Sequence record: MW233709
Strand: one strand, 5' to 3'
DNA: 64,000 nt
From: Escherichia phage UPEC01
Below are positions 571 to 63,279 of this stretch, piece after piece. Under the pieces are notes generated by a model, which saw nothing but the letters and a program-made list of their open reading frames with translations, was not told the origin of the DNA and did not search any database. Every line of letters begins with the position of its first letter. Position 1 is the first letter of the stretch. The translations under genes were made by a program, and so were the position numbers.

Positions 571-606
571 GTGTACAAACTCTTGGGAGCATTATACTCT
601 GCTCCC
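571..606 (+). promoter_or_regulatory. early sigma70-like promoter with -10 inside a hairpin loop
   Basis: -35 GTGTAC 571-576, 17-nt spacer, -10 TATACT 594-599; stem GGGAGC 585-590 / GCTCCC 601-606. Confidence 0.5.
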
Positions 607-2054: not shown

Positions 2055-2262
2055 CAAACACCATGAAGTTGAAGAAGAAGCTTATAAAGAGCTTCAGAAA
2101 CTGGTAGGGCAGAATATGTCTCCTGCTCTTATCAACAACCTGGCTGCACTGCGTAATGACCTCAATGAACGGTACAAGGGCGAATATTATGTTGAATTCG
2201 TTCCGCTGACTGAAGTCATTGACCGATTTATTGTTAATGTCAAGGTGCATACCGTCCATTAA
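2047..2262 (+). CDS. hypothetical protein (cd.x-like cluster)
   Basis: 71-aa ORF overlapping previous ORF by 8 nt. Confidence 0.45.
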   Translation: MYNKHHEVEEEAYKELQKLVGQNMSPALINNLAALRNDLNERYKGEYYVEFVPLTEVIDRFIVNVKVHTVH

Positions 2263-2287
2263 CGCTTTAAAAATTTTATGTTATAAT
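2261..2287 (+). promoter_or_regulatory. middle-type promoter cassette (MotA-box-like + TATAAT)
   Basis: aaCGCTTTA 2261-2269, 12-nt spacer, TATAAT 2282-2287, followed by GGGGTCTAGGTCC (cassette family). Confidence 0.5.
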
Positions 2288-2333
2288 GGGGTCTAGGTCC
2301 TTTGGATACCCCAATAACTAAGCGAGAAAAGAA

Positions 2334-11072: not shown

Positions 11073-13133
11073 ATGTCTGAACAATTAAATGAACTCTTTG
11101 ACAAATATATCGAAGCCTTCGGTTATCCTGTCATTAATATGAACCCAAAATACAAGGTCCCACAGGTTTGGCAATTCGGTGTTCCTGGGACAAATTCTCT
11201 TATGGCTCGTTTGATGCAATTCACGGGCAAAGAAACGGTTAAACAATATAAACGCGGTGATGCGATTGCCGAGGTATTTCTGTTATCCGGGACTTCACAT
11301 GGCCATGCTATTCCTCTGAAGGGTGGTCTAGGTGAAAAACCTCTTGACGCGATTAACCTGATTTTTGTTACAGTCTGGGAAAGCATTAAACTAGGTAAAC
11401 CTGATGTAGTCTTGTTCCGTTTCCCATCCAAAAAGATGAAAGGACAAGACCAAGCTGTTATTCGTATTATGAATCGACTGATTCAAATGAAAACCAGCGG
11501 ACGTTATCATGTTCTTCCGAATGCTTCTGGCCTCGGTAAAAAGAACGCTTATGTAATTATGTACAAAAAGGGTGTTGACCTGCTTTCGGTTGATGGTATG
11601 CCACCAGTCCCTGAGAAATATCAAAAAGTTGAAACTAAAGTTGGCGATGTATTCACCAATAAAGATACAGGCGCGCAAGTCTCCAAACAAGAAATCGCAG
11701 CCGAAGTTCTGATTAACGCAGCAAACAAAAAGACCGACGCAGCTGTTGCCCAGAAAACTAAAATCAGTCGCCGAGCTATTGCACAAGCCCAGTACGCACC
11801 AAGTGATTCCGTGCCAGAAGGTTGGGACGAAATTGATGCAGAAGCTGCTAAGTTTAGTCGACCGGCTACGGCAGAACTTATCGATGATTATGAAGAACTG
11901 GAAATTTTTGTTCGACCTTCCGAAACGAATACTATGGCTCGTATGCGCGCCGCGGATACGGCTATGCGAGCAAATGGTGTTTGGAAAGAAGAAATTCGTG
12001 TTGAAGACTCTGACCCAATTTTTAACCGTATGCATCGTGAACTTAAACGTGCCCCAGTTGGTAGCATGAAGCAGATGCAGATTTTTGCCGAATCATGCGC
12101 AGAGATTCTTAACCTTCGCAAAGCCGCATTTATCGAAAGAAAAATGAATGATGCTCCTCCTAACCTGGATGCAGCCACTTATGCAGCCTCGCTCTGGGAA
12201 AAAGAATACACAAGCGCCATTCGTGTTGCAGTTAAAGACTTTGCCGAAGAAGCATCAGAAAATACTCTTAATTTCACAGCAGGGTATACTGACAACCGTT
12301 TCCATTATGGCCAGCGAGAAGCAATTGCAGATTATTGTGGAGCAAACTATGCCGATATTAATAATTATTTGATGGGCAAATATTATGAAGAAGAAGCTGA
12401 ATTCCTAAATCTAGACAGAGTTGTCGAAACAATTAAGGAATTGGATTCGGCCTTTGAAATTGGACATAAGTTGCCGCCTAATACAACTCTTTGGCGTGGT
12501 CAATATTTAAATGTTCCTACATTTGATAAAATTAAGCAATCGAAATTATTTTATTTCAGGAACTATGTATCAACGTCGTTTAAACCGATTATCTTTGGTG
12601 GTTGGGTGGCGAACGTTGCTATGGCTGCAGTTCATCAGGACTATCGTGATGGGACATCTTTCCAGGCTGATGACGAAATTGTTTTACCAGATATGCCGGA
12701 TGCACGCCGCGACCACGTAATGATGCATGTTGGTTGGAAAATTTCTGGGGCGGACTTAATTAACGTAATTGTTCCTGGGGAATTGTCAAGCAACCCGTCC
12801 GAGCAGGAAGTTATTCTTCCTCGTGGGACTGTAGTTAAGATTACCAAAATTACTGATGCTTCGTATCAAGGAAACGCGAACGTCAAAATGCTGGAAGCTG
12901 ATATCCAGACTACGGACCAACTGGATGAAAATGCAGTTATCTATGATGGCGATGTGTTGATGGAAACTGGTGAGCTTGTCGTTTATCAGGGCGAGGAAAC
13001 AGAAGAGCCAGTAGAATCTGTTGACTTTGCATCGTTTGCATCCTCTGGTGTAACGAAGAAAGTCAATCAAGGTCTTGGTATTCTTGCTAGTTGTATTAAT
13101 TTGGAAGCTATTCCTCCTAAATTCCTTTCGTAG
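11073..13133 (+). CDS. alt: Alt-like mono-ADP-ribosyltransferase (head-packaged)
   Basis: 686 aa; conserved KVETKVGDVFTNKDTGAQV...KISRRAIAQ region as in T4 Alt; C-terminal ART motifs YVSTSF and EQE; late promoter TATAAATA at 11040-11047. Confidence 0.88.
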   Translation: MSEQLNELFDKYIEAFGYPVINMNPKYKVPQVWQFGVPGTNSLMARLMQFTGKETVKQYKRGDAIAEVFLLSGTSHGHAIPLKGGLGEKPLDAINLIFVTVWESIKLGKPDVVLFRFPSKKMKGQDQAVIRIMNRLIQMKTSGRYHVLPNASGLGKKNAYVIMYKKGVDLLSVDGMPPVPEKYQKVETKVGDVFTNKDTGAQVSKQEIAAEVLINAANKKTDAAVAQKTKISRRAIAQAQYAPSDSVPEGWDEIDAEAAKFSRPATAELIDDYEELEIFVRPSETNTMARMRAADTAMRANGVWKEEIRVEDSDPIFNRMHRELKRAPVGSMKQMQIFAESCAEILNLRKAAFIERKMNDAPPNLDAATYAASLWEKEYTSAIRVAVKDFAEEASENTLNFTAGYTDNRFHYGQREAIADYCGANYADINNYLMGKYYEEEAEFLNLDRVVETIKELDSAFEIGHKLPPNTTLWRGQYLNVPTFDKIKQSKLFYFRNYVSTSFKPIIFGGWVANVAMAAVHQDYRDGTSFQADDEIVLPDMPDARRDHVMMHVGWKISGADLINVIVPGELSSNPSEQEVILPRGTVVKITKITDASYQGNANVKMLEADIQTTDQLDENAVIYDGDVLMETGELVVYQGEETEEPVESVDFASFASSGVTKKVNQGLGILASCINLEAIPPKFLS

Positions 13134-20382: not shown

Positions 20383-20772
20383 ATGAATATAAACAAAATG
20401 TATAGCGATGTGTCTCCCGACTTATCTACAAGTTGGGATAAAGACGTTGCTAAAGTAACCGGTGCAAGGTCTGTTAAGAACAGTCTTCTGGGAATAATCA
20501 CCACAAGAAAAGGGTCAAGGCCTTTTATGCCTGAATTTGGATGTGATATAAGTAATCAGCTTTTTGAGAATATCACTCCATTAATCACAGATACCATTAA
20601 ACGCAACATCGTCTCCGCTGTGCGGAACTTTGAACCAAGGATAAGCAATCTACAGGTTGCAGTTGTCCCTATGTATGATGATAACTCCATTATCGTAACG
20701 GTTCAGTTCAGCATTGTTGATGACCCTGATACCCTCGAACAAATCAGGATTCAGCTAAGTCAAAACGGTTAA
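20383..20772 (+). CDS. 25: baseplate wedge subunit, lysozyme-like fold (gp25)
   Basis: 129 aa; NINKMYSD...LLGIITTRKGSRPF.PEFGCD...NFEPRI collinear with recalled T4 gp25. Confidence 0.9.
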   Translation: MNINKMYSDVSPDLSTSWDKDVAKVTGARSVKNSLLGIITTRKGSRPFMPEFGCDISNQLFENITPLITDTIKRNIVSAVRNFEPRISNLQVAVVPMYDDNSIIVTVQFSIVDDPDTLEQIRIQLSQNG

Positions 20773-20797
20773 TGCTTTAATTTTATGGCTGTATAAT
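20771..20797 (+). promoter_or_regulatory. middle-type promoter cassette upstream of uvsY
   Basis: aaTGCTTTA 20771-20779, 12-nt spacer, TATAAT 20792-20797, followed by GGTTCTAGACC. Confidence 0.6.
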
Positions 20798-20825
20798 GGT
20801 TCTAGACCCTTACATTGGATACATT

Positions 20826-21260
20826 ATGAAAACAGAGATTGAATATAAGTTGGAAGTCTTTCAGGACGAGTTAGATGCAGATTTAAAAATTGATGGTACA
20901 CAACTTCAATATGAAACACAAAACAACGTTTTGTTGCATAGCAAATGGTTGAGATTGTATACCAACTGCAAGAAAGAAATAATGCGTCTTGAGATTCAGA
21001 AGAAAACTGCACTGAAAAAACGACTAGACCATTATACGGGAAGGGGTGACCCAGGGGAAGAAGTATGCATGGATGTGTACGAGAAGTCAGAATTGAAAAC
21101 AGTCATGGCCGCAGATTCAAGCGTGTTGAAGATTGATACTTCAATTCAATATTGGGCACTGCTCCAGGACTTCTGTAGCGCTGCATTAGATGGTGTTAAG
21201 TCACGAAGTTTCGCACTTAAACATATGTTAGAAATAAGACAATTTGAGGCGGGCAAGTAA
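20826..21260 (+). CDS. uvsY: recombination mediator UvsY
   Basis: Internal ATG start; ...TQLQYETQNNVLLHSKWL...HMLEIRQFEAGK matches recalled T4 UvsY; middle-type promoter 20771-20797 upstream. Confidence 0.9.
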   Translation: MKTEIEYKLEVFQDELDADLKIDGTQLQYETQNNVLLHSKWLRLYTNCKKEIMRLEIQKKTALKKRLDHYTGRGDPGEEVCMDVYEKSELKTVMAADSSVLKIDTSIQYWALLQDFCSAALDGVKSRSFALKHMLEIRQFEAGK

Positions 21261-21857: not shown

Positions 21858-22085
21858 TTAGAAATCTTCGTCTTCGTCTTCGTCCATATCCTCAAGCTCG
21901 GCACGTTTACCGGCAAGAGCGTCACGAACACTGATATCATCGGAATCTTTCAGTTCAGCTTCTTTGCTGCGTTTCTTATAATAGCCTTCCAACTCCTTCA
22001 GACCGTCCATGGTCTGACAGGAACCAATCTTAGCCATAAAGCCTTCAATTGATGCTTCGTACATAATTTCTTCGAAGGATTTCAT
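21858..22085 (-). CDS. uvsW.1: UvsW.1-like small helical protein
   Basis: 75 aa with RDALAGKRAELED core and acidic C-terminus resembling recalled T4 UvsW.1; start overlaps HNH gene stop. Confidence 0.7.
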   Translation of the reverse strand: MKSFEEIMYEASIEGFMAKIGSCQTMDGLKELEGYYKKRSKEAELKDSDDISVRDALAGKRAELEDMDEDEDEDF

Positions 22086-22780
22086 TATATTTCCACCTGT
22101 TTAATTAAATTTCTGATTTTATATAAAGAAAGCCCCGTTGCTACAGAAGCTTGCTTCATCGAACCATATTCAATCCCGTTTAAAACCACTTTCTTAGCGG
22201 CAGGATTTTTGGATGGGTCTTTATAACGTTCTTTTGCTTTATCTGAAATTTTCTTTGATGCTTCTGGTGTATGTGATTTACCATACATCCAATTACCTTC
22301 ACCTTTATTTCTTTCGGATATAGCTTGACATTGTGCTTGAGAGTATTTATACGGATTCGCTTTCTTTGTCGCAGATATTTTATCGGCCCAAGTTATTTTG
22401 CGACCCTTTAATAATTGGCTCATATATTCTTTATGTTCTTCAGTATGGTGCTTACCATAAAAAGGATTGCCTTCACCAGTCTGAAGAACTGACATTTGTC
22501 TACGCTCCCATCCATACGATTTATTGAATTGTCGTTGATGTGTTCGAGAGCTCATACCCATAGCAATGACGGCCTTTATAAGACCGTAATGATTGGGATG
22601 AATTTTGGCCAATAATTTATGTGCAATAAAATGTTCTTCCGGAGTAAGGTTGACTCTGTTTTCTTGTGTATCAGGTCCACCCATACATTCTGGAATGATA
22701 TGGTGAGATTCCGTGTATCCAATCGGTTTGGAAGCCTTTCGGCTCCCAATTAAATCATCATATATTTTTTGATAATTCAA
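22085..22780 (-). CDS. HNH homing endonuclease (free-standing)
   Basis: 231 aa; HNH motif HHIIPECMGG...NRVNLTPEEHFIAH; two GEGN-x-YGK-H-T-E repeats (NUMOD-like); TTG start 4 nt after SD; flanked by 19-bp direct repeats. Confidence 0.85.
   Translation of the reverse strand: MNYQKIYDDLIGSRKASKPIGYTESHHIIPECMGGPDTQENRVNLTPEEHFIAHKLLAKIHPNHYGLIKAVIAMGMSSRTHQRQFNKSYGWERRQMSVLQTGEGNPFYGKHHTEEHKEYMSQLLKGRKITWADKISATKKANPYKYSQAQCQAISERNKGEGNWMYGKSHTPEASKKISDKAKERYKDPSKNPAAKKVVLNGIEYGSMKQASVATGLSLYKIRNLIKQVEI
22089..22107. repeat. 19-bp direct repeat ATTTCCACCTGTTTAATTA (copy 1)
   Basis: Identical to 22781-22799; on - strand encodes IKQVEI-stop plus SD for uvsW.1. Confidence 0.9.
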
Positions 22781-26771: not shown

Positions 26772-26775
26772 CCTT

Positions 26776-26803
26776 TTTGCTTCAAATAAAATTGTGGTAT
26801 AAT
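26776..26803 (+). promoter_or_regulatory. middle-type promoter cassette upstream of rnlB
   Basis: ttTGCTTCA 26776-26784, 13-nt spacer, TATAAT 26798-26803, followed by GGTTCTAGACC. Confidence 0.6.
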
Positions 26804-26901
26804 GGTTCTAGACCTTCCGATACGATTAATTTCTTTTCAGAGAAAGAAAGTATAGAGAGTCTAATTTATAATGATATTTATAACATCAAAAGTGAGAGAT
26901 T

Positions 26902-36934: not shown

Positions 36935-36985
36935 CCGTAGAACCGATTATGCTTTTATTTATAACACTGTATAATGGTTCTACGG
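36935..36985 (+). promoter_or_regulatory. orphan middle-type promoter cassette inside 10-bp inverted repeat (antisense to genes 18/19)
   Basis: aTGCTTTTA 36949-36957, TATAAT 36970-36975, GGTTCTACGG; enclosed by CCGTAGAACC 36935-36944 / GGTTCTACGG 36976-36985; a - strand TATAAATA (36956-36963) overlaps. Confidence 0.45.
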
Positions 36986-37021: not shown

Positions 37022-39001
37022 TTATTGTGGCCCAATCAGCTCATCAAAATCAGCACCAGTGCTTGTGGCTACGAAATTAAGCGTGATGTAGTTGATGCTG
37101 CGCGCAGGTTTAAAATAAATGCTAGCAACAAACTCATTTCGGTCTATGACCGACGGGGTGTTGTTAGTAGTATCACAAACCACACGACCTTCATAAATGC
37201 CACCGAGTGCACGAATACCATCCAAGTATTGAGAAGTTTCCATACGGAATGATGCACGAGTGAAGTTATCGTTAAGCTCAAACAGTTTATATTTGGATGC
37301 GTCACCGATATTTTTCTTCAGCATATTCGTAAGACGGCGAACGTTAATATGGTCCATCGGAGATGGAACTTTAGTTGCAGTCTTATCACCATACAGAACA
37401 AAACCATCACCACCTGCGAAACCAACAACCGGGTTGATAGCTTCTTGATACATGCGGTCACGCTGGGTCTGACGAGGTTCAACAGCCAATTTCAGAACAT
37501 TCAGAATCTGACCACGGTTATAACCAGCCGGAGACATCCAAGGCTGAGAAACATCATCAGTACGAGCACACAGTCCAGCCATATCAGCTGCCAGAGGAAC
37601 CCAACGGTTAACGTCGTTATATTTATCATACTGATATTTATAGTTGCCATCAATCGCTGCATAAGTCGTGCTGATATTCATGTTATCAGTATCAAATGCG
37701 CCAGCACCTGTACGCCAGTCAATCAGGTTATCCACTGCACGGGTCAGAGGAACGTTAACCAACAGACCTTTCGGCGGGGAAATGAATGCCAAGCAATCCT
37801 GACGTTCGTCAGCAATAGAAACCACGTGCTTCTGAACAGTGGAAGCGGTCGCATCACCTTCACCAGCACAAGCACCAGCGATAAGCAGGTTGATATGCAG
37901 AGCTTCACGGTCAGCGAACAGGTCCCAACCTTGCATCAAATCACCAGCGGTAATCTTATCGTTTGCAGAAATACCACCAGACAGATTGATGATACCACTG
38001 AAGCCTACAGGCCAGTTGCGAGATGTTGCATAGATGTAGTTGGAAGTACCTTTTGCAAAGTAGTCATCCAGGTAAATGTTATTACCATAAACATCTTTTT
38101 CGCCCTGCTTAGTAGACAAAACAACGTTTTCGACGATTGCACCATCGCGGCGAACGATAATTGCATATTGGTTTTCGGTCTGAGGACCATAGTTAAACAC
38201 TGCACGAGCTATAGAAGCGCGGGAACCACCACCGGGGAAAATATCCAGATTTGCAGTTGCGCCTTTTTCAAATTCAGCTTTGGATACGATTTCAACTTCA
38301 AGAGTCGAACCAATTTCACCAGGATAAAGAGCAACAACACCCGGCATTGCATATTTTGCCAATGATGCCTGGAATTCCAGAGAAGTAATTGCTTCTTCAC
38401 TGTTTTCTGCTTCAGTCAACAGAATGCCAGAATCGGTAACAATTTTCCCGACAGTGATGGTACCAGATACACCGGAAGAAGTGGTCGTAACTTCTGCAGT
38501 CCATGCACTGCCCAAATTAGGATACTGATTAATAGTTTTAGCAAATGCAATAATCTTATTGGTAGGAATAAAGATTGCCAGAATTTTACCATCAACATCG
38601 ACCTTGGTCACACGGCCAGCCGGTTCAACAACAGTCTGGTTGTGTTTAACTTGAATAACATCACCGACAGCATAGTTTGTACCAGCAGTTACGATGGTAG
38701 TTTCAATATTGCCAGCAATAGGGGATGCGTTTTTAGCTTCGTCACGGTTAACAACACGTACAGTACGGAGGTCGTTACCATATTGCAGGAAGTTCATCCC
38801 ACTCATAAAGTAATCTGCTGTTTCATTATTCGGACCACCAAACAAATCAACAAGTTCAACTTCGTTTGTAATCTGAGTTACCTGGAAAGCTGGGCCCCAC
38901 TGGAATTTACCAACCAGCGCCGCACGACCCGTCGCGTTACGAACAACAGTGCTTTGGACCGTTGTTTCTTTGAGCTCAATGCCCGGAGATAATAAAGCCA
39001 T
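37022..39001 (-). CDS. 18: tail sheath protein gp18
   Basis: 659 aa; LLSPGIELKETTVQSTVV N-terminus and size match T4 gp18; late promoter 39031-39038. Confidence 0.95.
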   Translation of the reverse strand: MALLSPGIELKETTVQSTVVRNATGRAALVGKFQWGPAFQVTQITNEVELVDLFGGPNNETADYFMSGMNFLQYGNDLRTVRVVNRDEAKNASPIAGNIETTIVTAGTNYAVGDVIQVKHNQTVVEPAGRVTKVDVDGKILAIFIPTNKIIAFAKTINQYPNLGSAWTAEVTTTSSGVSGTITVGKIVTDSGILLTEAENSEEAITSLEFQASLAKYAMPGVVALYPGEIGSTLEVEIVSKAEFEKGATANLDIFPGGGSRASIARAVFNYGPQTENQYAIIVRRDGAIVENVVLSTKQGEKDVYGNNIYLDDYFAKGTSNYIYATSRNWPVGFSGIINLSGGISANDKITAGDLMQGWDLFADREALHINLLIAGACAGEGDATASTVQKHVVSIADERQDCLAFISPPKGLLVNVPLTRAVDNLIDWRTGAGAFDTDNMNISTTYAAIDGNYKYQYDKYNDVNRWVPLAADMAGLCARTDDVSQPWMSPAGYNRGQILNVLKLAVEPRQTQRDRMYQEAINPVVGFAGGDGFVLYGDKTATKVPSPMDHINVRRLTNMLKKNIGDASKYKLFELNDNFTRASFRMETSQYLDGIRALGGIYEGRVVCDTTNNTPSVIDRNEFVASIYFKPARSINYITLNFVATSTGADFDELIGPQ

Positions 39002-59919: not shown

Positions 59920-60369
59920 ATGGCATACTCCGGGAAATTTAAGCCCACCAATATAGAAAAATATAAGGGCGACTGGAAGAAAATACAATACCGGTCAAGT
60001 TGGGAGGCTTGGCTGATGAGATGGCTCGACAACCATCCGAACGTTGTTCAATGGGGTTCTGAGACTGTGATTATTCCATACTTCTGCAACGCGGAAGGGA
60101 AAAAGCGCAGATATTATATGGATTTCTGGGTTAAGTTCGATACGGGGCAACAGTTCTTTTTCGAAGTTAAACCATTAAAAGAAACAAGACCCCCAACCAA
60201 ACCGGCCAATAATACCACTGCGAGTAAAAAGAGATTTATTAATGAGATGTACACCTGGAGCGTTAACTCTGACAAATGGAAAGCTGCGCAAGCTACCGCG
60301 GATAAGATGGGTATAACGTTCAGGATAATCACTGAAAACTCACTGAAAAAATTAGGATGGAAAGGATGA
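59920..60369 (+). CDS. 4: head completion protein gp4
   Basis: 149 aa; late promoter TATAAATA 59884-59891; order 4-2-3-1 as in T4. Confidence 0.8.
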
Positions 60370-61190
60370 GTATTTTTACATTTATCAATGAATCTGCAGA
60401 TAAACCAGGTCCGAAACCCAGTAAATCAGAACAACAATGGGTTGAAATAGGGGTTGAATTTTATACAGCAAAAGAAAAGGGAATGACCTCGAAGAAGTTT
60501 GCTGAAGAGAAAGGAATCAACTATTCGACCTTTACCAAAAGCATGTCGAGATATCATTCGAGAATTCAGACTGCTTATAAAGTATCCAAGCTCAAAAAGA
60601 AACCCGCCGGTAAACTTACGAAGGCTGAACGTCAGCTGATAATGGTGAATAGCTTTAGAAAGAGCATAAGAGATAAGATTGCTAACGAAGGCGCTGCAAG
60701 CAACACCAAATCTGCCAGATGGTTCGCTGAGACAATTAAGAAATCAGTTCGTGGTCACGTAACGGCTAAACCTCAACCGGGTAAGATTTATGCTTATATC
60801 TATGATGCAAAGCATAAGGATACTCTTCCGTATTGGGACAAATATCCGTTAATCATTTATCTTGGGCTAGGTAAGCACAATTTGATGTATGGTTTGAACT
60901 TGCACTATATTCCACCGAAGGCACGTCAAGAGTTCCTTGAGGAACTTCTTAAGCAATATGCTAATACTCCTACGATTACGAACAAGACTCATCTGAAGAT
61001 TGATTGGTCAAAGGTGAAGGGATTTAAAGGGGCTGACCAGATGATTAAAGCATATATACCTGGCAATATAAAAGGTACTATTACTGAAATCAAGCCCAGC
61101 GACTGGGCAAACGTTGTTATGCTTCCGTTGCAACAATTTATGTCGAAAGGCAAAAGATTCTCTTCCCAGAAAGTATGGAGAAATTCATAA
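60357..61190 (+). CDS. 2: DNA end protector protein gp2
   Basis: 277 aa, basic; synteny between 4 and 3. Confidence 0.8.
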
Positions 61191-61202
61191 TCTATTATCG
61201 GT

Positions 61203-61262
61203 CAGTGTTATTGGTAAGGACAAAAGGTCTAGAACCATTATAACACTGATTGTTTTAAAGCA
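61203..61262 (-). promoter_or_regulatory. orphan middle-type promoter cassette on - strand (antisense to gene 2)
   Basis: - strand reads TGCTTTA-N13-TATAAT-GGTTCTAGACC (+ coords 61262-61226); inverted repeat CAGTGTTAT 61203-61211 / ATAACACTG 61240-61248. Confidence 0.45.
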
Positions 61263-61275
61263 AACAAGGTGCACT

Positions 61276-63240: not shown

Positions 63241-63279
63241 TGTACAAATGAGTGTAGGTGCAGTATTATGTTCCTACAC
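63240..63279 (+). promoter_or_regulatory. early promoter with -10 inside a hairpin loop, upstream of IP-like genes
   Basis: GTGTAC 63240-63245, 18-nt spacer, TATTAT 63264-63269; stem GTGTAGG 63252-63258 / CCTACAC 63273-63279; AAGTAGTGTACAAA also at 567-580. Confidence 0.5.

What the first reader, a model, noticed from the sequence alone, without database searches (positions are those of the whole stretch)
20771..20811. Five-copy promoter cassette: MotA-box-like element, extended -10, and a conserved downstream GGTTCTAGACC
Five loci share (T/C)GCTT(T/C)A, a 12-13-nt spacer, TGTATAATGG, then TTCTAGACC or a close variant: 2261-2300 (+), 20771-20811 (+), 26776-26817 (+), 36949-36985 (+) and 61226-61262 (-). 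The first part fits T4 middle promoters (MotA box about 12 nt upstream of the -10). The conserved near-palindromic sequence after the -10 is not part of the generic promoter consensus. It suggests a shared initial transcribed element, a protein binding or cleavage site, or a mobile regulatory cassette of the kind proposed to mediate module shuffling in T4-type phages.
Basis: partly seen in the sequence, partly recalled or inferred. Interest (0 to 1): 0.6.

Follow-up and report, generated by a model that had tools for sequence, protein, structure and literature searches.

The report
Middle-promoter subclass with conserved start-site element
The five repeats are T4-type middle promoters of an old subclass, shared with phage T4 itself, that keeps a fixed sequence across the transcription start; this sequence is undescribed in the papers I could search and its role is unproven.

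Summary
The pattern GCTTYW-N12/13-TATAATGGKKYY occurs 5 times in the window against 0 in 100 shuffles, at exactly the stated places. Three copies share the 17-mer TATAATGGTTCTAGACC.

The window is a Gaprivervirus, a T4-type phage close to Shigella phage SP18, which encodes MotA and AsiA. All five sites meet the sequence definition of MotA-dependent middle promoters.

The element after the -10 is not peculiar to this phage. Phage T4, JS98-like phages and other genera carry the same promoters at the same genomic places, each with a version of TATAAT-GGTyCT-A-GGTCC. In T4 three members are mapped middle promoters: PuvsY (origin oriF), PnrdC.7 and P34i (origin oriG). All three start at the A of CTA, 7 nt after the -10.

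Two window copies read antisense into late genes, gp18 and gp2. The T4 counterpart of the gp2 copy is absent from the list of 58 mapped T4 middle promoters.

The palindrome is lineage-specific, so a palindrome-cutting or palindrome-binding protein is unlikely. Copies within one genome resemble each other more than expected (p about 0.001).

Most likely the element is a cis-acting discriminator, start-site and initial-transcribed element. An origin (R-loop) role or an unknown trans factor remains possible.

The parts
2260..2300 (+). Site 1, promoter upstream of cd.3 (ATG 2334). MotA box TAACGCTTTA 2260-2269, 12-nt spacer, TATAAT 2282-2287, start-site element GGGGTCTAGGTCC 2288-2300. Predicted start is A2295.
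   Evidence: Mapped to SP18 between gp233 and cd.3. An inverted repeat TAATGGGGT/ACCCCAATA lies at 2284-2292 and 2308-2316.
20770..20811 (+). Site 2, the uvsY promoter, ortholog of T4 PuvsY/oriF. MotA box TAATGCTTTA 20770-20779, 12-nt spacer, TATAAT 20792-20797, element GGTTCTAGACCC 20798-20809. Predicted start is A20804. The uvsY ATG is at 20826.
   Evidence: T4 PuvsY start 115371 is the A 7 nt after the -10.
26775..26817 (+). Site 3, promoter upstream of rnlB (RNA ligase 2, ATG 26902). MotA box TTTTGCTTCA 26775-26784, 13-nt spacer, TGg-TATAAT 26795-26803, element GGTTCTAGACCT 26804-26815. Predicted start is A26810.
   Evidence: Orthologous promoters exist in JS98-like and other genera, while the T4 group has no intergenic region there.
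36947..36985 (+). Site 4, promoter in the gp19/gp18 intergenic region, reading antisense into gp18 (gp18 is 37022-39001 on the minus strand). MotA-like box TTATGCTTTT 36947-36956, 13-nt spacer, TATAAT 36970-36975, element GGTTCTACGG 36976-36985. Predicted start is A36982.
   Evidence: Present in Gaprivervirus, JS98-like phages and one further group; absent in T4.
36935..36944 (.). Left arm CCGTAGAACC of a perfect 10-bp inverted repeat. The right arm is the start-site element of site 4 (36976-36985). The MotA box and the -10 lie in the 31-nt loop.
61226..61265 (-). Site 5, promoter in the gp2/gp3 intergenic region, reading antisense into gp2 (gp2 is 60366-61190 on the plus strand). MotA box GTTTGCTTTA 61265-61256, 13-nt spacer, TGt-TATAAT 61245-61237, element GGTTCTAGACC 61236-61226. 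Predicted start is A61230.
   Evidence: The T4 ortholog has its -10 ending at 75993(+).
61202..61249 (.). Perfect 10-bp inverted repeat TCAGTGTTAT (61202-61211) / ATAACACTGA (61240-61249). It encloses the start-site element of site 5. In the late gp2-gp3 mRNA it would form an intercistronic hairpin.
   Evidence: Equivalent stems in other genera change on both arms together.

Best explanation
The five loci are MotA/AsiA-dependent middle-mode promoters of a Gaprivervirus, a T4-type phage. They belong to a distinct and old subclass of middle promoters found across T4-type phages, T4 included.

In this subclass a perfect TATAAT is followed by G-G-T-Y-C-T-A-G-G-T-C-C. In this phage the sequence is usually GGTTCT-AGACC. 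The element is not a separate site downstream of the promoter. It spans the discriminator (-6 to -1), the start nucleotide (the A of CTA, 7 nt after the -10) and the first 6-10 transcribed bases.

Shown:
- the repeat itself;
- its match to the middle-promoter definition;
- its orthology to T4 PuvsY;
- mapped starts at the A of CTA in three T4 members;
- its conservation at several syntenic sites in many genera.

Inferred: the element acts in cis on E. coli RNA polymerase. G at -6 and -5 would contact sigma region 1.2. T(-1), A(+1) and G(+2) would contact the core recognition pockets. Together these would fix the start point and stabilise the open complex at promoters where AsiA has removed the -35 contact. 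The GC-rich +2 to +6 block has no assigned role.

Site 2 is also the homolog of the T4 oriF primer promoter. Sites 4 and 5 produce non-coding transcripts antisense to late genes gp18 and gp2. The near-identity of copies within one genome most likely reflects homogenisation by gene conversion, or co-adaptation, among paralogous promoters.
For: Repeat and promoter anatomy.

Identity of the phage: 97-98% identity to Shigella phage SP18 and Escherichia phage DK-13. SP18 encodes motA and asiA.

Published definition: MotA box, 12 +/- 1 bp, TAtaaT, with TGn in about half of promoters. All five sites fit it.

T4 carries the same family at orthologous places: 11890(+), 53332(-), 75993(+), 115378(-) and 153018(-). 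PnrdC.7 (start 53325), PuvsY (115371) and P34i (153011) are on the list of 58 mapped middle promoters. Their starts fall on the A 7 nt after TATAAT.

The element is conserved across genera while the spacers and the sequence beyond about +10 diverge:
- uvsY site;
- gp3/gp2 site;
- modA site;
- nrdC.6/7 site;
- rnlB site;
- gp19/gp18 site;
- master table of all sites.

Identity over the 14 nt after the -10 is 0.55 even between different sites in different genomes.

Most other middle promoters in T4 and SP18 have A/T-rich sequence after the -10, so this is a discrete subclass.

No shared RNA fold was found in the first 107 nt of the five predicted transcripts, and there was no Rfam hit. Both favour a DNA-level role.

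From established knowledge, not tested here: G at -5/-6 stabilises open complexes through sigma 1.2 (Haugen 2006), and core RNA polymerase reads non-template T(-1) and G(+2) (Zhang 2012; Vvedenskaya 2016). Lambda PR has the similar sequence GATAAT-GGTTGC-A.
Against: No 5'-end data exist for this phage. The starts are inferred from T4.

Generic RNA polymerase contacts explain -6, -5, -1, +1 and +2. They do not explain the conserved pyrimidines at -3/-2 or the GGTCC/GACC block at +2 to +6.

All these phages use E. coli or Shigella RNA polymerase, yet the +1 to +6 sequence differs by lineage and is shared by paralogs within a lineage: T4 AAGTCC, Gaprivervirus AGACC, JS98 AGGTYY, contig 650627040 GAGTTC (permutation p about 0.001). 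A pure polymerase-contact model does not predict this.

In many uvsY promoters the triplet after the -10 covaries with a second copy after +1 (GGG...GGG against GGT...GGT). This is unexplained.

The T4 copies antisense to modA and gene 2 are not among the 58 mapped middle promoters, so it is unproven that the antisense copies fire.
Confidence: 0.55

Rival explanations
1. Origin-type primer promoters. The start-site element marks those middle promoters whose transcripts stay hybridised to the template as R-loops and prime DNA replication, as at T4 oriF and oriG. On this reading the window would hold up to five origin-like sites.
For: Site 2 is the ortholog of T4 oriF. The oriG promoter P34i and its SP18 ortholog carry a related element, TATAATGGTCCCAGAG.

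Of the 58 mapped T4 middle promoters, only PnrdC.7, PuvsY and P34i match TATAAT-G[AG]N-YYY-A. The two plasmid-proven R-loop origins are therefore both in this set of three. The chance of that is about 0.002, but the class was defined after seeing the data.

Sites 4 and 5 and the T4 copies at 11890(+) and 75993(+) give untranslated antisense RNAs, as ori34 does. The two T4 antisense copies lie 3-4 kb upstream, in their direction of transcription, of the landmarks that the review gives for oriA (soc) and oriE (repEA).
Against: The review states that R-loop formation at oriF does not depend on specific sequences. It also states that no motif is shared by all origins, that oriE has no nearby middle promoter, and that oriA is ascribed to the gene 56 promoter.

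A+T content at +8 to +57 is the same for this subclass and for other middle promoters: 0.68 against 0.69 in SP18, and 0.72 against 0.69 in T4. There is thus no class-specific unwinding element.

PnrdC.7 points away from oriC.

From memory, not checked here: plasmid screens of T4 DNA recovered only ori(uvsY) and ori(34).
Confidence: 0.15
2. Operator or RNA tag for a phage-encoded factor. A lineage-specific protein, or an RNA, recognises the DNA around +1 or the common 5' end of the transcripts (AGACC.. here, AAGUCC.. in T4) and co-regulates this set of promoters or RNAs.
For: The +1 to +6 sequence is lineage-specific but shared among paralogs in one genome, although all these phages use the same host polymerase.

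The element looks like two half-sites: a direct repeat GGKYC..GGKYC in most genera, and a near-palindrome in Gaprivervirus.

The promoter set is functionally odd. It includes recombination and replication genes plus antisense RNAs to modA, gp2 and gp18.
Against: No candidate factor is known.

Half-site orientation and spacing are not conserved: they are inverted in Gaprivervirus, direct elsewhere, and the gap varies between 2 and 3 nt. That is unusual for a protein site.

JS98 copies differ considerably from each other.

Gene conversion among repeats in a highly recombinogenic phage could give the same within-genome similarity.

No shared RNA structure was found.
Confidence: 0.15
3. Hitch-hiking in a mobile promoter cassette. 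The downstream sequence has no function of its own. It is carried along in a promoter(+hairpin) cassette of the PeSL/PmSL kind, which spreads by duplication and recombination and mediates module shuffling.
For: Sites 3 and 5 share 47 bp at 83% identity.

Distribution is patchy. The rnlB copy is absent from the T4 group. The gp19/gp18 copy is present in only three groups. The cd.3 copy was seen only in Gaprivervirus, but other genera were not checked for it.

Sites 4 and 5 are embedded in perfect 10-bp inverted repeats.

JS98 copies at gp3/gp2 and gp19/gp18 share the end CTGGGATAATAGATTA.

Homing-endonuclease genes are inserted right beside the cassette in some genomes.

PmSLs built on Mot-box promoters were described in vibriophage nt-1.
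Against: Five sites (uvsY, gp3/gp2, modA, nrdC.6/7 and gene 34) are orthologous between T4 and Gaprivervirus, and all but gene 34, which was not checked there, also occur in JS98-like phages. So the copies are ancient, not recently mobile.

Over that distance the spacers and flanks have diverged freely while -6 to +8 stayed. This means selection acts on the element itself.

In canonical PeSLs the stem-loop lies upstream of the promoter. That is not the arrangement here.
Confidence: 0.1
4. Cleavage site of a phage homing endonuclease, such as the HNH protein at 22085-22780, that recognises the near-palindrome GGTTCTAGACC.
For: TCTAGA is palindromic, and 3 of the 4 TCTAGA sites in the window lie in these promoters. 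Homing-endonuclease genes do lie near some copies.
Against: The palindrome is confined to Gaprivervirus, while the element is conserved as a non-palindrome elsewhere.

The stretches fetched downstream of uvsY from three Gaprivervirus genomes with 3-4 exact copies show no match to this HNH gene.

A self-genome with 3 or more cleavable sites would be self-destructive without protection.
Confidence: 0.02

Closest known systems
Bacteriophage T4 MotA/AsiA-dependent middle promoters (sigma appropriation), specifically PuvsY, PnrdC.7 and P34i
   Same: MotA box (GCTT core) 12-13 nt upstream of a perfect sigma70 -10, and TGn in 3 of 5 sites. The nearest annotated relative encodes MotA and AsiA. Site 2 is the positional ortholog of PuvsY. 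The T4 members start at the A of CTA, 7 nt after the -10.
   Different: The published consensus stops at the -10. Here a further 12-16 nt (discriminator, start and early transcribed bases) are conserved in a subset of promoters across genera. Most of the 58 mapped T4 middle promoters have A/T-rich sequence there. Two window copies and two T4 copies point antisense and are not in the T4 list.
T4 R-loop replication origins oriF (ori uvsY) and oriG (ori34)
   Same: Both are a middle-mode promoter whose transcript primes leading-strand synthesis. Site 2 is syntenic with oriF. ori34 is an antisense, non-coding middle promoter inside a late gene, like sites 4 and 5.
   Different: An origin also needs an A+T-rich unwinding element and a persistent R-loop. 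No class-specific unwinding signature was found, and nothing here shows replication initiation.
PeSL/PmSL composite promoter/stem-loop cassettes of T4-like phages (Arbiol 2010; Comeau 2014)
   Same: Short, repeated promoter-containing cassettes associated with stem-loops and with variable gene content. A Mot-box version (PmSL) has been described. Sites 4 and 5 are wrapped in perfect inverted repeats.
   Different: In PeSLs the stem-loop precedes the promoter and acts as the terminator of the upstream gene, and the elements cluster in hyperplastic regions. Here the stems enclose the promoter or its start. Several copies lie in conserved core regions at orthologous sites. The conserved part is the start-site region.
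Strong sigma70 promoters with a G-rich discriminator, for example lambda PR (GATAAT-GGTTGC-A)
   Same: GG directly after the -10, a pyrimidine at -1 and A at +1. These features are known to lengthen open-complex life and fix the start site (own knowledge, not tested here).
   Different: Those are -35-dependent host-type promoters. The conserved +2 to +6 block and its lineage-specific versions have no counterpart there.

Membership tests
T4-type MotA-dependent middle promoter | MotA box (a/t)(a/t)(a/t)TGCTTtA centred near -30 | tested here: met
   TAACGCTTTA, TAATGCTTTA, TTTTGCTTCA, TTATGCTTTT and GTTTGCTTTA.
T4-type MotA-dependent middle promoter | MotA box lies 12 +/- 1 bp from the -10 | tested here: met
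   The spacers are 12, 12, 13, 13 and 13 nt.
T4-type MotA-dependent middle promoter | Excellent match to the sigma70 -10 (TAtaaT) | tested here: met
   TATAAT in 5 of 5 sites.
T4-type MotA-dependent middle promoter | The phage encodes MotA and AsiA | tested here: met
   motA and asiA are annotated in SP18, which is 97% identical to the window. Neither gene lies inside the window itself.
T4-type MotA-dependent middle promoter | Transcripts that depend on MotA and AsiA start a few nt after the -10 in vivo or in vitro | not testable with these tools
   There are no 5'-end data for this phage. The T4 relatives PuvsY, PnrdC.7 and P34i are mapped. The T4 antisense relatives are not on that list.
T4 R-loop origin (oriF/oriG type) | Middle-mode promoter | tested here: met
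   As in the rows above.
T4 R-loop origin (oriF/oriG type) | [quoted passage not shown] | tested here: inconclusive
   The region from +8 to +57 is 60-76% A+T, but other middle promoters are equally A+T-rich.
T4 R-loop origin (oriF/oriG type) | Persistent RNA-DNA hybrid, and autonomous replication of a plasmid carrying the site | not testable with these tools
   This needs experiments (describes the assays).
T4 R-loop origin (oriF/oriG type) | Synteny with a mapped T4 origin | tested here: met
   Met for site 2 only, where it corresponds to uvsY/oriF. Sites 1, 3, 4 and 5 do not correspond to any annotated T4 origin.
PeSL/PmSL cassette | Stem-loop (terminator) immediately upstream of the promoter | tested here: not met
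   At site 4 the stem encloses the whole promoter. At sites 1 and 5 the stems enclose the -10 and start. Sites 2 and 3 have none. The canonical layout is described.
PeSL/PmSL cassette | Many near-identical copies associated with gene gain and loss between close relatives | tested here: inconclusive
   Five copies in the window and 9-10 candidates in the SP18 genome. Endonuclease gene insertions lie next to some copies. However, most copies are at conserved orthologous sites.
Extended -10 promoter (TGnTATAAT) | TG at -15/-14, one base before the hexamer | tested here: inconclusive
   Present in sites 1, 3 and 5. In sites 2 and 4 the TG directly abuts TATAAT.

The most novel reading that the evidence does not exclude
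The conserved start-site element is the missing sequence signature of R-loop-forming primer promoters in T4-type phages.

It distinguishes the few middle promoters whose transcripts stay on the template and prime replication (oriF and oriG) from ordinary middle promoters.

The conserved but unlisted antisense copies would then be further origins or recombination hot spots. In T4 these are the copies antisense to modA and gene 2, lying 3-4 kb upstream of the oriA and oriE landmarks. In this window they are the copies antisense to gp2 and gp18.

Their lineage-specific sequence would reflect co-evolution with a phage replication or RNA-processing factor.
Probability: 0.12. Interest if true: 0.75.

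Novelty: new variant of a known kind. Interest (0 to 1): 0.42.

Why it matters
T4 middle promoters are a textbook case of sigma appropriation. They are defined only by a MotA box and a -10. Reviews state that T4 origins share no local motif and that oriF and oriG have little homology.

A subclass with about 14 conserved positions across the start site would matter in three ways:
- It includes both proven R-loop origins.
- It includes conserved promoters that fire antisense into modA, gp2 and gp18.
- It gives a concrete, mutable sequence for two open questions: what makes a middle promoter an origin, and what the antisense transcripts of T4-type phages do.

If the element merely tunes start-site choice and open-complex stability, it is a modest refinement of the promoter consensus, useful for annotating T4-like genomes.

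Tried and rejected
- Chance repeat: rejected.
- Element specific to this phage: rejected. T4, JS98-like and other genera have it at orthologous sites.
- Exact 17-mer elsewhere in IMG/VR: found only in Gaprivervirus genomes, plus four metagenome contigs without a correctly spaced MotA box, which is compatible with chance.
- Shared RNA structure or known RNA family downstream: none. Fold z-scores were unremarkable and differed between sites. Rfam gave nothing in the window.
- Class-specific A+T-rich unwinding element: none.
- Terminators bounding the antisense RNAs: one weak candidate at 61108-61094(-), about 135 nt after site 5. Nothing convincing was found after site 4.
- HNH target: disfavoured.
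- Literature search by sequence words found only unrelated primers.
- Searches for T4 antisense or start-site papers found a dRNA-seq preprint reporting 150 T4 starts, 22 of them antisense. Its table is not held as text.
- Brister and Nossal origin-mapping papers are not held.
- Anti-Shine-Dalgarno-like pairing of the pyrimidine-rich 5' end (..GUCCUUCC..) with the mRNAs' own ribosome-binding sites: inspected by eye for uvsY, rnlB, nrdC.6 and cd.3, with no consistent pairing.
- T4 primase GTT sites in the element: not universal. T4 PuvsY has none.
Full report
**Observation**

Reading the five loci confirms the finding. Each has a MotA-box-like decamer: TAACGCTTTA, TAATGCTTTA, TTTTGCTTCA, TTATGCTTTT or GTTTGCTTTA. 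Each then has a 12- or 13-nt spacer, a perfect TATAAT, and then GG(T/G)(T/G)(C/T)(T/C).

Three copies share the exact 17-mer TATAATGGTTCTAGACC, at 20792, 26798 and 61226(-). With up to 3 mismatches allowed, 0.13 matches are expected by chance. The composite pattern GCTTYW-N12/13-TATAATGGKKYY finds exactly these five sites, and none in 100 shuffles.

GGTTCTAGACC taken alone with 2 mismatches is not enriched. What repeats is therefore the promoter together with what follows it. A canonical TGn extended -10 is present in three of the five sites.

**What the window is**

A 5-kb stretch is 97-98% identical to Escherichia phage DK-13 and Shigella phage SP18 (Straboviridae, Tevenvirinae, Gaprivervirus). 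SP18 encodes MotA and AsiA.

Mapping onto SP18 places the sites as follows:
- Site 1 lies upstream of cd.3.
- Site 2 lies upstream of uvsY.
- Site 3 lies upstream of rnlB.
- Site 4 lies in the gp19/gp18 intergenic region, pointing into gp18 antisense.
- Site 5 lies in the gp2/gp3 intergenic region, pointing into gp2 antisense.

The whole SP18 genome has three more copies. One lies between srd and modA, antisense to modA. One lies upstream of nrdC.6. One lies inside gene 34, antisense.

**The key result: the family is old and includes T4**

Scanning the T4 genome (assembled) for MotA box plus -10 shows the same promoters at the same places:

| T4 position | Location | Sequence after TATAAT |
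|---|---|---|
| 11890(+) | srd/modA, antisense | GAATCTAAGTCC |
| 53332(-) | nrdC.7 | GGTTCTAAGCCC |
| 75993(+) | gene 3/gene 2, antisense | GGGTCTAAGTCC |
| 115378(-) | uvsY | GAATCTAAGTCC |
| 153018(-) | inside gene 34 | GGTCCCAGAGAG |

The T4 record annotates the uvsY promoter as origin oriF and the gene 34 site as oriG.

Loci from IMG/VR show versions of the element in many other T4-type contigs, at the uvsY, gp3/gp2, modA, nrdC.6, rnlB and gp19/gp18 sites. Examples are GGTCCTAGGTCT, GGGTCTATGGGT, GGTTTTGAGTTC and GACTCTAGGTCT (master table).

The spacers and the sequence beyond about +10 have diverged freely, but the 12-14 nt after the -10 have not. Identity there is 0.55 even between different sites in different genomes.

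The general form is TATAAT-GGTYCT-A-GGTCC(TTCC).

**Where transcription starts**

Table 1 of Hinton's 2010 review lists 58 mapped T4 middle promoters with their start sites. PnrdC.7 (53325), PuvsY (115371) and P34i (153011) are family members. Their starts are the A of CTA or CCA, exactly 7 nt after the last T of the -10.

The conserved element therefore covers the discriminator (-6 to -1), the start and the first transcribed bases. By homology the window starts are A20804, A26810, A36982 and A61230(-). For site 1, which has one extra G, the start is A2295.

Most of the 58 T4 promoters, and most other MotA-box promoters in SP18, have A/T-rich sequence after the -10. This is therefore a discrete subclass.

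The two clockwise T4 copies, antisense to modA and gene 2, are not in the table of 58.

**Mechanism**

The published definition of a middle promoter stops at the -10. The most economical reading is that the element works in cis on RNA polymerase:
- G at -6/-5 matches the sigma 1.2 discriminator optimum.
- T(-1), A(+1) and G(+2) match the core recognition element.
- Lambda PR has the similar sequence GATAAT-GGTTGC-A.

These three points come from established knowledge and were not tested here.

SP18 early promoters also have G at -6 (14 of 14) and A at the seventh position (11 of 14). They have A/T at -5 and no conserved transcribed block. Part of the element is therefore generic and part is specific to the family.

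Nothing supports an RNA-structure role. The five predicted 5' regions have no common fold and unremarkable z-scores, and Rfam finds nothing.

**What this does not explain**

The +2 to +6 block (GGTCC or GACC) is conserved, yet it differs by lineage and is shared by paralogs within a lineage:
- T4: AAGTCC three times, and AAGCCC once.
- Gaprivervirus: AGACC three times, plus GACC without the A at the nrdC.6 site.
- JS98-like: AGGTYY.
- Contig 650627040: GAGTTC twice.

At the nrdC.6/7 site the 38 nt up to GGTTCT are almost identical in the three groups. Each group then switches to its own version.

In a permutation test on 32 sequences from 10 genomes, paralogs in one genome are more alike than sequences from different sites in different genomes. 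Identity is 0.65 against 0.55 over 14 nt (p < 0.001), and 0.56 against 0.45 over +1 to +6 (p = 0.002).

All these phages use the same host polymerase. This points to gene conversion among the copies or to co-adaptation with a phage factor.

In many uvsY promoters the triplet after the -10 also covaries with a second copy after +1. I have no explanation for this.

**Origin hypothesis**

Both plasmid-proven T4 R-loop origins, oriF and oriG, use promoters of this subclass. Under a strict pattern only three of the 58 mapped promoters belong to it. This is suggestive, but the class was defined after seeing the data.

The evidence against a class-wide origin role is:
- The Kreuzer and Brister review says R-loop formation at oriF needs no specific sequence.
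- The same review says that origins share no motif, and that oriE has no middle promoter nearby.
- I found no class-specific A+T-rich unwinding element.

I keep this reading as the most novel one the data do not exclude.

**Cassette hypothesis**

Several observations fit a mobile cassette:
- Site 4 is enclosed by a perfect 10-bp inverted repeat whose right arm is the element itself.
- Site 5 has a perfect 10-bp repeat around its start.
- In other genera the equivalent stems change on both arms together.
- Sites 3 and 5 share 47 bp at 83% identity.
- Some copies are lineage-restricted.
- Endonuclease genes are inserted beside the cassette in some genomes.

This resembles the PeSL/PmSL cassettes of Comeau et al. 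2014. However, the layout differs, and most copies are orthologous over large distances. Mobility may explain how copies arose. It does not explain why the start-site sequence is kept.

**Endonuclease idea**

The stretches fetched downstream of uvsY from three Gaprivervirus genomes show no match to the HNH gene of the window, yet those genomes keep 3-4 exact 17-mers. The palindrome is also not conserved outside the genus. I consider this idea very unlikely.

**Verdict**

The sites are middle promoters of a known kind, and site 2 is the counterpart of T4 PuvsY/oriF.

What appears new is a recognisable subclass with a conserved discriminator, start and early-transcribed element. It is shared across T4-type genera, homogenised within genomes, and includes conserved antisense promoters. 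I found no description of it in the literature available to me.

Its function is inferred, not shown. Interest is moderate.

Noticed in passing
whole window (and SP18 genome, L001-L004): GATC is completely absent from the 64-kb window, where 219 copies are expected from trinucleotide counts. It occurs only 5 times in all of SP18 (593 expected). T4 has 191 against 566 expected. This is a very strong avoidance of the Dam/MboI-type site.
   Followed up: no
window 584-596 (-), 63264-63276 (+); SP18 record 6905, 137307, 166746, 167153 (-): Early promoters of this phage (GTGTACA at -35, then TATAAT) carry an inverted repeat that places the -10 in a hairpin loop, for example GGGAGCagagTATAATGCTCCC. 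They look like PeSL-type promoter/stem-loop cassettes.
   Followed up: partly
window 36935-36944 / 36976-36985 and 61202-61211 / 61240-61249: Perfect 10-bp inverted repeats wrap the two antisense promoters. In the late mRNAs they would form intercistronic hairpins after gp18 and gp2. Equivalent stems in JS98-like and other phages change on both arms together.
   Followed up: partly
T4 (AF158101) -10 ending at 11890 (+) and 75993 (+): T4 has consensus-quality MotA-box promoters pointing antisense into modA and gene 2. They are conserved in other genera but are absent from the list of 58 mapped T4 middle promoters, all of which lie on the other strand.
   Followed up: partly
loci L209-L235 (upstream of uvsY in many T4-type contigs): Around the uvsY start the triplet after the -10 covaries with a second copy after +1. 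Examples are GGGTCTATGGGT, GGGTCCATGGGT and GGGTTTACGGGT against GGTCCTATGGTT and GGTCCTACGGTC. This is unexplained.
   Followed up: no
window 21029-21036 (-): TATAATGGTCTAGTCG lies on the minus strand inside the uvsY coding region, facing the uvsY promoter, with no MotA box. It overlaps the codons for LDHY and may be coincidental.
   Followed up: no
window 20796 vs 20826: The SP18 RefSeq annotation starts uvsY at the ATG inside the -10 hexamer (TATAATGG). The start conserved across genera, and downstream of the predicted transcription start, is the ATG at 20826.
   Followed up: yes
window 22085-22780 (-): The HNH homing-endonuclease gene between uvsW.1 and uvsW varies in presence. Many close relatives match only 87% of the 5-kb query. 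The gene was not found downstream of uvsY in the stretches fetched from three IMG/VR Gaprivervirus genomes.
   Followed up: partly
L009 3995-4669 (IMGVR_UViG_2706795401): In one Gaprivervirus genome a 224-aa HNH endonuclease gene is inserted between gp2 and the antisense promoter cassette. The junction falls right after the shared GATAATAGATTA.
   Followed up: no
window about 26850-26862 (+); SP18 record 108439-108451 (-): About 45 bp downstream of site 3 there is a second, degenerate copy of the -10 plus element: TATAGAGAGTCTA here and TATAGTGGGTCTA in SP18. This hints at a tandem duplication of the core.
   Followed up: no
T4 115378-115402 (-) (L028): The spacer of T4 PuvsY is itself a palindrome (CACGTTAAAACGTG) lying between the MotA box and the -10. 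It is absent from the Gaprivervirus ortholog.
   Followed up: no
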